The translations under genes were made by a program, and so were the position numbers. From Eledone cirrhosa (taxonomy: Eukaryota), in assembly GCA_964016885.1 (NCBI GenBank), contig OZ024742.1, positions 333,126,001-333,190,000 of the forward strand: a DNA stretch of 64,000 nt. The letters run 5' to 3'. Positions within the stretch are counted from its first letter, which is position 1. Each line of letters starts with the position of its first letter. Shown here piece after piece: positions 27,051 to 64,000 of the stretch. The notes under the pieces are model-generated. The model saw only the letters and a list, made by a program, of their open reading frames with translations. It was not told the origin of the DNA and ran no database searches.

Positions 27051-27285
27051 GTAATAATAATAAATTTGAAGACTAAAATCCAAAGAGGGCTCGATAAGGA
27101 TAAATATATATCAAATATATAAGAATCGTAGAGCAAATATTTATAAAAATAACAGATTAAAGTGTAACAAAGAATCGCTGCTTTCACCCTTAACGGGATC
27201 TTCTGAAGCAGAGTTTCAGAAGATCCCGTTAAGGGTGAAAGCAGCGATTCTTTGTTACACTTTAATCTGTTATTTTAATAAATAT
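27049..27285. mobile_element. Family B fold-back copy with ~70-bp near-perfect hairpin
   Basis: Arms 27136-27207 and 27215-27284; in (TA)n. Confidence 0.85.
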
Positions 27286-39451: not shown

Positions 39452-40017
39452 ATGCGGATTATCAGCTCGGACTGGTAATTGTTATATAGGAAGAATAACC
39501 GTATGAACGCACATGCGCAGAAACGGTCACTTCGCCCAAGAAAACCAAAACCACGGACGAAAGGGAGATAACTGCCAATCGCCGGAATAAAAAGTTCAAG
39601 TTGATTCGAAAATTAGAATGTTGTTGTTATTCAATCCGGAGCTTTGTAGTTATTCAAGAGGTGTTTCCAGGCATGTGGACAACGTGAGAATATTTCAGCC
39701 TTTGATTTAGGCAATCACTATTGCGTAAATTTAGGTAATCGCTATTGCCTAAATGAAAGAAAGAAATATTCTCGCGTTGTCCACATGTCTGGAAACACAT
39801 CTTGCATAACTGCAAAGTTCCGGATTGAATAACAACATCATTCTAATTTTCTAATCAACTTGAACATTTTATTCCGGAGATTCGCAGTTTTCTGCCTTAC
39901 ACCTTCCGAACGTGTTTTTTTTATCGCTTGGGTGAAGTGACCGTTTCTGCGTATGCACGTTCATACGGTTGTTCCTGTTCCGTATAACTATTACTAGTCC
40001 GAGCTGAAGATCTGCAT
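39452..40017. mobile_element. ~570-bp palindromic MITE-like element, no central spacer
   Basis: Arms align from atgcggattatcagctcggactggtaa to ttactagtccgagctgaagatctgcat; centre at 39729/39730. Confidence 0.85.
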
Positions 40018-60539: not shown

Positions 60540-60727
60540 AAGAGAGAAAGAGAGAGAGAGAGAGAGAATTTCCTTTGCGATTTGTTTTTCAATATTTTCC
60601 ATACGTATTTATTCCTGCCAGACATGAAAACATTGACTGCTTGGATGTAAATAAGAATCATTCTGTTTCTTATCAATATGTCTATGTATTTTTGTGTATG
60701 TATTCTTATATATATAAATATATATAC

Positions 60728-60783
<56 letters not shown>

Positions 60784-60941
60784 TTATATATATATATATA
60801 TATATATGCAGAGGTTATATTTAATTTGTTGGGATTGAACAAGCTTAAACATTTTTATAACTGATATAAAGCACTCAACAGTTTAGTGGAGTAAATACAC
60901 GATATATTGATAAATGGAAACTATACTTATAAAACCATATT

Positions 60942-61007
60942 TATTTTATTATACATATTTCAAGGGCAACCAAGGCAAATTATGGTGCGCTTTCATCAGA
61001 TAAAATA
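60942..61007 (-). ncRNA. Type I hammerhead ribozyme (left arm of family F)
   Basis: UAUUUUAU-CUGAUGA-AAGCGCACCA..UGGUUGCCCUU-GAAA-UA(UG)UA-UA/AUAAAAUA. Confidence 0.85.
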
Positions 61008-61100
61008 CAGATTTGTTTTACAAATAAATATAGACATACCCGGAAAAAAGACAACCTTAACGGAGGCTCCATGTCAATATTTATTTGTAAAACAAATATG

Positions 61101-61166
61101 TATTTTATCTGATGAAAGCGCACCATAATTTGCCTTGGTTGCCCTTGAAATATATATAATAAAATA
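61101..61166 (+). ncRNA. Type I hammerhead ribozyme (right arm of family F)
   Basis: 8-bp stem I 61101-61108/61159-61166, CUGAUGA 61109-61115, long stem II, GAAA 61147-61150, stem III AUA(UA)UAU, predicted cut after A61158. Confidence 0.88.
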
Positions 61167-61208
61167 AATATGGTTTTATAAATATAGTTTCCATTTATTA
61201 ATATATTG

Positions 61209-61244
<36 letters not shown>

Positions 61245-61300: not shown

Positions 61301-61347
<47 letters not shown>

Positions 61348-61353
61348 ATATAA

Positions 61354-61643
61354 ATATTGTCATACTTTGAGAGGGTCAAGCTGCCAAAAAAAAACACACG
61401 CACCTTATGTATTTCACTTCTTCGTCACACATTCTGAGACTTCTTCAGTGACTGGGTTTTTATTTTGTGTTTCTCCTTTGTTCTGTCCTATTTCCTCTTG
61501 TTTTTTAGGTCACAAAATATTTTACGAAACAGATTTGTCATCGAACCAACCAAACAAATGGAAATTTATAATAAATTGAAGTGAAAATCAATAATGTGCG
61601 TGTCTCATTATTGGCAGCATGACCCTCCAAAGTATAACAATAT
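61354..61643. mobile_element. Family C element with ~66-bp diverged inverted ends
   Basis: 61354-61420 is the reverse complement of 61578-61643; the same end occurs as stubs at 13691 and 30295. Confidence 0.75.
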
Positions 61644-61791
61644 ATGTTTCAACACACGCTTCCAGATAAGAAATTTTGCAAAACAAATAAAAAAAAAACG
61701 AACTATATATAAATATATATATATATACCTATACACACACACATATGTATATATAAATATATAAATATATATATATATATTTATTAAAATA

Positions 61792-61867
61792 ACAGATTAA
61801 AGTTTAAGCAAAGAATCGCTGCTTTCACCCTTAACGGGATCTTCTGAAACTAACAAAGTCAATCTGC
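61792..61867 (-). ncRNA. Variant extended type I hammerhead in the PLE terminal repeat (family B)
   Basis: GCAGAUUGA-CUUUGUU-AGUUU-CAGAAGA-U-CCC(GUUAA)GGG-U-GAA-AGCA..UGCU-U/AAACU-UUAAUCUGU; all three stems form; A at position 4. Confidence 0.65.
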
Positions 61868-62168
61868 AAACGCAGAACTGGATATTTCAAAAAACATTGC
61901 AACCGGAGGAAGACAGTAAGACGATACTTTGGTTCGTGGAAACTTTTGCTGGCTATGCAAATAAGTAAAGGTATACACAAAACATATACTTATCTCCCAC
62001 ATCGAGACGTAAAATATCCACGTATAGATCGTACTATCCGTCACGGTACAAACCACCGCCCGCGTTGGGGAATTCGTCCTTGATAGAGAAAAGAAGGAAA
62101 AGGCCGATGAGATCAGTAACCTCCGCAGAATCACTGGCGCCCATACTCACGTCGAATGGGGTACTATT

Positions 62169-63949
62169 AAGGATTCTAATGCCGTGCACGTCCATTCCGA
62201 CAAAACTGGCTATCTATATCAAGTGGAGCGCAGTACCTACCATCAACTACTACATAATGCTCTCATTAATGAAATCAACGATGCTGGGTTTAAAATCACA
62301 TCTGATCTCAACATCCTGGACCGGACCGAACCTCTGGACCCTATTTCTCCCCACTTTACCCTGAAGGATCACAAATCCAATTTTCCGAACAACCCGTCTA
62401 TTCGGCTTATTAACCCTACGAAGTCCGATTTAGGTAGACTTAGTAAGACGATTCTTGATAGAATTATACCTGAAATTAGAAGTTTGGCCCGTCTTGCACT
62501 GTGGAAGAATTCCTTCGCGGTGATTGATTGGTTCAACGGCATATGTAACAAGGAACATTGCCGTTTTATCCAATTCGACATCAACAATTACTACTCCTCC
62601 ATCACTTTACCACTTCTCCTTAGAGCTATCAATTTCGCTAAAACACTCACAGTGGTTAAGGATTTCTAAGTTGATGTCATCCTCAATGCCCGAAAGTCGG
62701 TGATTAATTTCGACGACTCTATTTGGATTAAAAAATCCAATAGTACCCCATTCGACATGAGTATGGGCGCCAGTGATTCTGCAGAGGTTACTGATCGTAT
62801 CGCCTTTTCCTTTTTTCTCTATCAAGGACGAATTCCCCAACGCGGGCGGTGGTTTGTACCGTGACGATGGGCTTTTGACCATGACTAAGTGCGGACCTCG
62901 TGCTTGCGACAGGTTCAGAAAAGAACTCACAGCCTTCTTTAAAGGCTTCAACCTCTCTATACAGGTTGCGGCCAATCTCTCGGTCGTTAATTACCTCGAC
63001 GTTACCCTCAACTTATTGAATGGGTTGTATTACCCGTATAGAAAGCCGAATGATACGCTTAATTACATAAGTAAGCATTCCAACCATCCTGCCAGCATAA
63101 CCAAGAACCTGGTAAGAAACGTTTCGTTGAGGCTTTCGCGTCTTTCCACCAACGAGCGTATTTTCAACGACCATTCCACTCATTACAATGAAGCTCTTGC
63201 TCGAAGTGGATTTGTCGATAAGGTAGCATATAATGAGTACGAAAATAGACCTAGGAGCAATAGATCCCGTCGCATTCGTTGGTATAACCCACCATATAAT
63301 ATGGAGGTGGCCACACCATTAGCTAAGATCTTTCTTTCCCTTATTACGAAGCATTTCCCCCCTACACATAAATATAGTAAAATTTTTAATAGAAATACTA
63401 TTAAAATTTCTTACTCTACGACTCCTAACCTTGCACATAGCATCACAGCTTCAGATTTAGCTAAACTACCTAGCCGTAGGAACACGTGCAACCTTGTAGT
63501 TAGTACTAACTGTAATTGTAGGAATCGGGTTGAATGCCCCCTATCCGGGAAATGCCTCTCTAGTAACATTGTCTACAAATGTAAGGTTGTAACACCCACC
63601 CCCGTAGGGCCTACATAGGGTTAACCGCCAACAGATTCAAGCAGCGTCTTTACATGCATACCCATTCTTTTCGATACCCTCTAAGAATGAATATGACGTC
63701 ACTTTTAGCTTATATCTGGAGTCTAAAAGACAACCACACCCAATTTAAGTTACACTGGGAGATCCTAGCAAGGGCTAGATCGTATAACGGAAGTAAAAGA
63801 CCACGTGACCTCTGCGCCGCTGAGGCCCTGGAAATACTCTACGCACAGACCACATCTTAAACAAAAAATCTGAGGCAATTTCGGCTTGTAAACATAAATT
63901 GCACAAAACCTTCCTGTATTACAGCCCCACGTTATACCCTAACGGATAG
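62169..63949 (+). pseudogene. PLE reverse transcriptase-GIY-YIG endonuclease ORF, disrupted
   Basis: Motifs SDKT, TLKDHK, RLINP, FIQFDINNYYSSI, FDMSMGASDSAE, LYRDDGL, NYLDVTL, YRKP, WYNPPY, CNCRNRVECPLSGKC, NIVY..YIG, FKQR, DLCAAE, LNKKSE..CKH; stop at 62667 and frameshifts near 62802, 63610 and 63852. Confidence 0.93.
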
Positions 63950-64000
63950 TACGATCTATACGTGGATATTTTACGTCTCGATGTGGGAGCTAAGTATATG

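What the first reader, a model, noticed from the sequence alone, without database searches (positions are those of the whole stretch)
60902..61206. Hairpin with two canonical-core hammerheads, one on each strand
Each 136-bp arm holds a complete hammerhead (plus strand 61101-61166, minus strand 60942-61007) with an 8-bp stem I, CUGAUGA/GAAA core, long stem II and AUA site. Transcription in either direction gives an RNA containing a ribozyme and its own upstream antisense copy, so hairpin formation would compete with ribozyme folding. Stem III is the (AU)n palindrome itself, the same sequence as the target microsatellite, and could support dimeric cleavage as described for minimal hammerheads.
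Basis: partly seen in the sequence, partly recalled or inferred. Interest (0 to 1): 0.75.

Follow-up and report, generated by a model that had tools for sequence, protein, structure and literature searches.

The report
Two-armed Penelope insertion, twin hammerheads
This hairpin is two back-to-back end pieces of a very common Penelope-type jumping gene, each carrying that element's hammerhead-ribozyme motif, and it is most likely a leftover of how the element inserts rather than a purpose-built RNA switch.

Summary
The hairpin and both hammerhead motifs are real, but they are not a stand-alone device. Each arm is the 3' end of an abundant Hydra-type Penelope-like retroelement (3,749 exact 30-mer matches in the genome). 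Longer copies link the arm to an RT plus endonuclease ORF. The insertion is larger than reported (60807-61209): the left arm carries an extra 93-nt 'tail'. In 47 of 50 cleanly classed head-to-head pairs one arm is tailed and the other not, and paired arms share variants. That points to one RNA copied from two fixed start points into both ends of a cut (TA)n. Opposite-strand hammerhead pairs, inverted 5'-truncated copies and one-sided tails are published for PLEs (PMC4209133, PMC8557442). The scan noted the same architecture earlier elsewhere in this genome. In a read-through RNA the hairpin would suppress the ribozyme, but the arms drift independently, so nothing suggests a selected switch. 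The stem III/(TA)n link fails: most copies read AUAUGUAU, and sister families use other palindromes.

The parts
60807..61063 (-). Left arm: 5'-truncated 3' end (pLTR) of a Hydra-type Penelope-like element, ending at the distal (tailed) terminus
   Evidence: Aligns to positions 1-242 of the family 5' region taken from L054; family reads continue past 61063 with other letters (table 7)
60807..60899 (-). 93-nt 'tail', the stretch between the family's two fixed 3' termini; in full-length copies it runs on to the ORF start about 50 nt further
60873..60892 (-). Small bulged hairpin motif just behind the proximal terminus; a second, similar copy lies just behind the distal terminus in full-length elements
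   Evidence: L044 and L038 show both copies; L054 and L056 the second
60942..61007 (-). Type I hammerhead motif of the left arm (core 60999-60993, GAAA 60961-60958, stem III AUAUGUAU, predicted cut 60950/60949)
61064..61070 (+). 7-nt junction resembling family sequence that normally lies about 35-43 nt upstream of the arm; probably the remnant of a partly deleted palindromic centre (inferred)
61071..61209 (+). Right arm: 5'-truncated 3' end of the same element, ending at the proximal (untailed) terminus
61101..61166 (+). Type I hammerhead motif of the right arm (core 61109-61115, stem II 61116-61146, GAAA 61147-61150, stem III AUAUAUAU, predicted cut 61158/61159); stem I predicted to extend to 61082/61184
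60708..60806 (.). Left flank, (TA)n-rich target microsatellite
61210..61225 (.). Right flank, (TA)n target microsatellite followed by (TG)n

Best explanation
The hairpin is a short two-armed insertion of an abundant Hydra-type Penelope-like retroelement into a (TA)n tract, likely made when the element's enzyme cut the target and copied one RNA from two fixed start points, one onto each DNA end. Shown: family membership, linkage to an RT plus C-terminal endonuclease ORF on the hammerhead's strand, two fixed 3' termini about 90 nt apart, the one-tailed/one-untailed pairing, and shared variants between paired arms. Inferred: priming on both target strands, a single RNA template, and joining of the two cDNA 5' ends near the transcript start (5' ends cluster 25-55 nt upstream of the arm). 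Each arm carries a hammerhead only because the motif lies just upstream of the start points. In the element's own tandem transcript the motif would cleave weakly, as a dimer or with protein help. In any read-through RNA of this locus the antisense arm comes first and would lock it in a duplex, so this copy is most likely catalytically silent and neutral.
For: Family: 43 matches, 41 of them full-length at 95-100% identity, from 40 scored of 226 candidates; 3,749 exact 30-mer matches, reversed control 0. ORF linkage: L032, L033 and L034; 18 of 20 RT-selected loci have an arm downstream on the same strand (L042 and L044 do not). In L054, L047, L044 and L038 arm and tail (L056: tail only) run on into an ORF start. 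Termini: of 159 end calls, 82 fall in the short bin (63 at one position), 65 in the tail bin (61 at one position), 6 read through and 6 are other. Head-to-head pairs within 8 kb: 58, of which 47 short+tail, 2 short+short, 1 tail+tail, 8 not classable; only 1 tail-to-tail pair. The rule holds in all three samples: 18, 9 and 20 pairs. Two pairs dropped by the 85% filter are also short+tail. Paired arms are 97.35% identical against 94.96% between loci (29 pairs, 0 of 5000 permutations); 63 shared variants, 7 of them rare. In 15 of 47 pairs the tailed arm begins at or within the tail, as expected if it stalls at the second primed site. Literature: PMC4209133 (dual motifs 100-700 bp apart on opposite strands, low activity, dimers), PMC8557442 (inverted 5'-truncated copy, one-sided tail, Penelope-13_HM listed with a hammerhead on each strand), PMC11167929 (both strands cut and extended; two RT start sites bound the tail; hammerhead not needed in vitro).
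Against: No insertion intermediate or RNA was observed; the mechanism is read from genomic footprints. Shared variants could also come from two RNAs of one source locus or from later conversion between arms. L039 and L043 are near-duplicates (99% over 10 kb) and the window's own pair is counted, so the pairs are not all independent. 12 of the first 30 exact matches have no head-to-head partner within 1.3 kb. [quoted passage not shown] The window's two arms differ at 5 positions and share only 1 non-majority variant.
Confidence: 0.85

Rival explanations
1. A selected RNA switch: the antisense arm regulates ribozyme cleavage of a host or element transcript.
For: The geometry permits it; the whole hairpin abolishes the hammerhead fold in both directions. 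Both cores are intact here.
Against: The arrangement is common: 27 of 47 pairs have two whole motifs and 20 have both cores intact. Arms accumulate private, unpaired changes (68 short-only, 80 tail-only). Core conservation among ORF-selected copies (0.97-0.98) is like the flanks (0.97-0.98). At about -200 kcal/mol the hairpin is a lock, not a switch. No Pfam domain was found in 60 of 140 candidate window ORFs, so no host gene was identified.
Confidence: 0.03
2. A non-autonomous foldback/MITE-type DNA transposon whose terminal inverted repeats happen to contain a hammerhead.
For: Long inverted repeats, TA flanks, no coding capacity, many copies.
Against: The two termini differ (tail on one side only); spacers range from 0 to 7.6 kb and hold 5'-truncated RT/endonuclease sequence; junctions differ between loci.
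Confidence: 0.03
3. The inverted arm arose after insertion, by DNA-level foldback repair or recombination of a single copy, or from two independent head-to-head insertions into one (TA)n tract.
For: Paired arms are more alike than random copies, which foldback copying would also give; (TA)n tracts attract clustered insertions.
Against: Copying one arm cannot give the partner a different fixed terminus; independent insertions would give about half same-type pairs, not 3 of 50 (binomial p about 2e-11), and would leave (TA)n between arms, which this locus lacks.
Confidence: 0.08

Closest known systems
Hydra clade of C-terminal-endonuclease Penelope-like elements (Craig et al. 2021, PMC8557442; e.g. 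Penelope-13_HM, Hydra-1_Obim)
   Same: DKT motif, CxCX5C linker, CxxC and CxH around the conserved E/N, (TA)n targets, canonical hammerhead near the 3' end, inverted 5'-truncated copy. Penelope-13_HM is listed with a hammerhead on each strand.
   Different: RWR instead of RWK. The unit is longer (about 4.2 kb arm to arm in L054, with a 3' UTR of over 1 kb, against generally under 3 kb). The tail is 93 nt against 30-40. The hammerhead sequence matches none of the Hydra rows in File S2.
PLE minimal/type I hammerheads (Cervera and de la Pena 2014, PMC4209133)
   Same: Type I topology, short palindromic stem III predicted to need a dimer, pairs on opposite strands 100-700 bp apart attributed to truncated PLEs.
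   Different: A-U rather than G10.1-C11.1 at the base of stem II; longer stem I with internal loops; longer, imperfect stem II.
PAc (Poseidon, Anolis) in vitro system (PMC11167929)
   Same: Two fixed termini bounding a tail; AT-rich target; hammerhead close to the RT start region.
   Different: Different clade. Here both termini lie in the 5' UTR before the ATG, not inside the ORF. The one-of-each pairing in inverted pairs is not reported in the section read.
Neptune PLEs
   Same: C-terminal GIY-YIG-type endonuclease, cysteine linker, microsatellite targeting.
   Different: The linker is CxCX5C rather than CX2-5CxxC; DKT is present and no DKG was found. My first guess of Neptune was dropped.

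Membership tests
Penelope-like element (EN+) | Single ORF with RT followed by a GIY-YIG-type endonuclease, linked to the repeat on the same strand | tested here: met
   YRDD, linker and NYVGST in linked copies, read from motifs; Pfam gave no RT or GIY-YIG hit for 2 family proteins
Penelope-like element (EN+) | pLTR structure: partial tandems, inverted 5'-truncated copies, one-sided tail | tested here: met
Penelope-like element (EN+) | Hammerhead in the pLTR | tested here: met
   99 of 118 spanning copies keep an intact core; 25 of 33 in the ORF-selected set
Hydra clade | DKT in place of DKG | tested here: met
   SDKT in L054, L047, L044, L038 and L056; no DKG in the 6 loci scanned
Hydra clade | CxCX5C linker; CxxC and CxH flanking E/N | tested here: met
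   Linker in 5 of 6 loci, CxxC in 5 of 6, CxH in 5 of 6
Hydra clade | RWK motif present, GxKF/Y absent | tested here: inconclusive
   RWR in 4 copies and RWQ in 1: similar, not identical; no GxKF seen in those translations
Hydra clade | Absence of the CCHH motif in the endonuclease | not tested
   No alignment to canonical PLE endonucleases was made
Hydra clade | RT phylogeny groups with Hydra | not tested
   No reference proteins were loaded; assignment rests on motifs in PMC8557442 section 11
Hydra clade | (TA)n insertion preference | tested here: met
   Most end calls in the pair table continue into (TA)n
Type I hammerhead ribozyme | CUGANGA and GAAA core, NUH site, stems I-III around the core | tested here: met
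   stem III only 2 bp; AUA occurs in a natural viroid hammerhead (PMC1636495, search listing)
Type I hammerhead ribozyme | G10.1-C11.1 base pair | tested here: not met
   A-U in both arms; called highly conserved in PMC4209133
Type I hammerhead ribozyme | Self-cleavage | not testable with these tools
   Needs an in vitro assay
Non-LTR retrozyme | Short tandem non-coding units with no ORF | tested here: not met
   The family has its own ORF, and no tandem array of the arm was seen
MITE / foldback DNA transposon | Matching termini and fixed internal structure | tested here: not met

The most novel reading that the evidence does not exclude
Penelope-type enzymes insert by obligate twin priming: a dimer cuts both strands of (TA)n and starts one cDNA just before each of two copies of a small RNA hairpin on the same RNA. 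Every two-armed insertion therefore has exactly one tailed and one untailed end, and short hammerhead hairpins form when both cDNAs run off the transcript's 5' end. This would explain the PLE tail and the inverted copies in one step. A weaker add-on: in this family the first hairpin's 3' strand can alternatively pair with the hammerhead core (18 of 32 tailed copies), so protein binding there could release the ribozyme.
Probability: 0.5. Interest if true: 0.45.

Novelty: new member of a known kind. Interest (0 to 1): 0.17.

Why it matters
The locus itself is one of many and probably neutral. Its value is as a footprint. The 47-of-50 one-tail rule, the two fixed ends and the shared variants turn the known but unexplained inverted-plus-tail structure of Penelope-like elements into a testable twin-priming model. 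Many such hairpins could also supply double-stranded RNA when read through, which is untested here.

Tried and rejected
Rfam scan of the window: no match at gathering threshold. Pfam: nothing relevant for 2 family and 2 neighbour proteins; 0 hits for 60 of 140 candidate window ORFs, so no host gene was found and none is excluded. RNA: no RNA holder listed. The 4 runs laid are contigs from one study; no piece spans the stretch, so they show family abundance only. Neptune clade: first guess, dropped after PMC8557442 section 11 and motif checks. An apparent strand-biased variant at reference position 34 was a selection artefact: it occurs in 21 BLAST-selected copies, 0 ORF-selected and 1 pattern-selected. 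Tail-to-core pairing as a conserved switch: strong in the window's left arm (-16.0 kcal/mol, 0 of 200 shuffles), but p at least 0.095 in all 20 other testable hits from other families (6 more were too short). It is also absent in two native-context folds whose motif is mutated or deleted, so it is likely incidental. Selection on the core within the family: not distinguishable from the flanks. The neighbouring PLE from 61.8 kb on as source of the hairpin: different family, 39% protein identity. A genome-wide count of close pairs could not be obtained; frequencies come from sampled loci. The junction probe found nothing and is uninformative. A search for Penelope + twin priming + inverted + tail returned 1 unrelated review; this is too thin to claim that the pairing rule is not in print.

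Full report
Observation. The region holds a near-perfect inverted repeat, arms 60892-61037 and 61071-61216, 95% complementary, folding at -194.5 kcal/mol with z -29.9. Each arm has CUGAUGA, a 31-nt stem II, GAAA, a 2-bp stem III and an AUA site inside an 8-bp stem I. Stem I is predicted to extend through two internal loops. The base of stem II is A-U, not the usual G-C. The right arm's stem III reads AUAUAUAU and the left arm's AUAUGUAU. Rfam has no hit.

What it is. The window comes from a 3.0-Gb, microsatellite-rich animal genome; a cephalopod is my guess, not a result. The arm is a dispersed repeat: 43 matches from 40 scored candidates and 3,749 exact matches of a 30-mer over the core, with 0 for the reversed control. 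Walking upstream in longer copies reaches a 3' UTR of over 1 kb and an ORF with YRDD, a CxCX5C linker and a C-terminal endonuclease on the hammerhead's strand. 18 of 20 RT-selected loci end in the arm. In full-length copies the same arm also lies 5' of the ORF, followed by the 93-nt tail and an ATG about 50 nt later. That is the pLTR-and-tail organisation of Penelope-like elements. DKT, CxCX5C, CxxC/CxH and (TA)n targeting match the Hydra clade as defined in PMC8557442 section 11. RWK is RWR here; the tree and the CCHH test were not done. The Hydra lead came from earlier scan notes and replaced my Neptune guess.

True extent. The left copy runs 61063 to 60807 and ends at the distal terminus with the tail. 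The right copy runs 61071 to 61209 and ends at the proximal terminus. Both abut (TA)n. The 7-nt junction resembles family sequence from just upstream, and many copies turn there: 5' ends fall 25-55 nt upstream of the arm in 18 of 33 BLAST-selected, 15 of 38 pattern-selected and 1 of 38 ORF-selected copies. A partly deleted palindromic centre is inferred.

Family pattern. Among 159 end calls (hits under 85% identity, 10 in number, and hits at locus edges were dropped), 82 are short, 65 tailed, 6 read-through and 6 other. Of 58 head-to-head pairs within 8 kb, 47 are short+tail, 2 short+short, 1 tail+tail and 8 unclassable; there is 1 tail-to-tail pair. L039 and L043 are duplicates, and the window's own pair is included. 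Two dropped pairs are also short+tail. Paired arms are more alike than unpaired ones (97.35% against 94.96%, 29 pairs, 0 of 5000 permutations) and share subfamily and rare variants, while 148 private changes show independent drift since insertion. In 15 of 47 pairs the tailed arm covers only the tail. Each terminus lies a few bases before a copy of a small bulged hairpin motif. Of the first 30 exact matches on contig C1, 18 have a head-to-head partner within 1.3 kb, 7 of them with a whole second hammerhead, and 12 have none.

Mechanism. The simplest reading (inferred) is that the element's protein cuts (TA)n on both strands, primes one cDNA at each of two sites on one RNA, and the two cDNAs are joined at their far ends. 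This agrees with the PAc system, which cuts and extends both strands and starts at two sites that bound the tail, and in which hammerhead mutants do not block insertion (PMC11167929). The hammerhead is duplicated only because it lies just upstream of both start sites. Alone, the right arm forms stems I and II (0.62-0.92) but not stem III (0.002); the stem III self-duplex is weak (-3.2 and -2.2 kcal/mol). In the whole hairpin the fold is abolished in both directions. The two motifs face away from each other on opposite strands and cannot dimerise in cis.

Competition between hairpin and ribozyme is real on paper but is a by-product: 27 of 47 pairs carry two whole motifs, and other hammerhead families in the fetched loci also show opposite-strand pairs (L012, L036, L049, L088). 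The stem III/(TA)n identity is incidental: 76 of 118 copies read AUAUGUAU, and sister families keep palindromes of other sequence. This fits selection for a palindrome, as in the dimer model. The core is intact in 99 of 118 copies, but within this young family it is no more conserved than its flanks in the ORF-selected set.

What is known. PMC4209133 (parts 1-2 of 4 read) reports dual motifs 100-700 bp apart on opposite strands as truncated PLEs, no monomer cleavage and low dimer cleavage. PMC8557442 (passages, section 11, supplement part 2 of 59 and a supplement search) describes inverted 5'-truncated copies, a one-sided tail, and Penelope-13_HM with a hammerhead on each strand. PMC11167929: passages and the whole main-text section. 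bioRxiv 10.64898/2026.07.22.740005: part 1 of 5 (its supplements are closed); it links retrozymes to PLE pLTRs and does not bear further. PMC1636495: search listing only. Earlier scan notes describe the same two-armed architecture, twin hairpins and run-off model elsewhere in this genome; I re-tested these in this family.

Verdict. A real feature and a member of an apparently uncatalogued family (checked only against File S2 of PMC8557442) of a known kind, in a published arrangement. Interest 0.17. The remaining interest is the quantitative one-tail rule as a handle on PLE insertion.

Noticed in passing
window 61780-64000 and L031:1000-1290: A second Hydra-like PLE family (39% protein identity to the hairpin's family) with its own inverted, internally deleted 5' copy (inverted arms 61983-62051/63932-64000 and 62039-62168/62739-62866). 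Its 3' end has a hammerhead-shaped motif with CAGAAGA (A at position 4) and, by eye, a 4-5-bp stem III.
   Followed up: partly
window 27051-27281: Another two-armed (TA)n insertion of that second family, with two outward-facing CAGAAGA-core motifs and a longer left arm.
   Followed up: partly
window 61347-61703: A decayed insertion resembling a third hammerhead family (that of L088, L031 and L076), directly between the hairpin and the neighbouring PLE; seen by eye.
   Followed up: no
window 39561-39898: A 169-bp palindrome with no spacer, 87% complementary; possibly another two-armed insertion.
   Followed up: no
L032:4752-6450: Exact 424-bp tandem units carrying a hammerhead with an ACUAGU stem III, plus an inverted copy: retrozyme-like.
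   Followed up: no
window 61036-61043 (- strand) and 60855-60864 (- strand): A donor-like GG/GTATGT just upstream of the arm and an acceptor-like TATATCAG in the tail could place the hammerhead inside a 5' UTR intron; motif resemblance recalled, no RNA data.
   Followed up: no
L077, L087, L092, L096: A subfamily with linked changes, including loss of the stem II bulge, present in both arms of each pair.
   Followed up: partly
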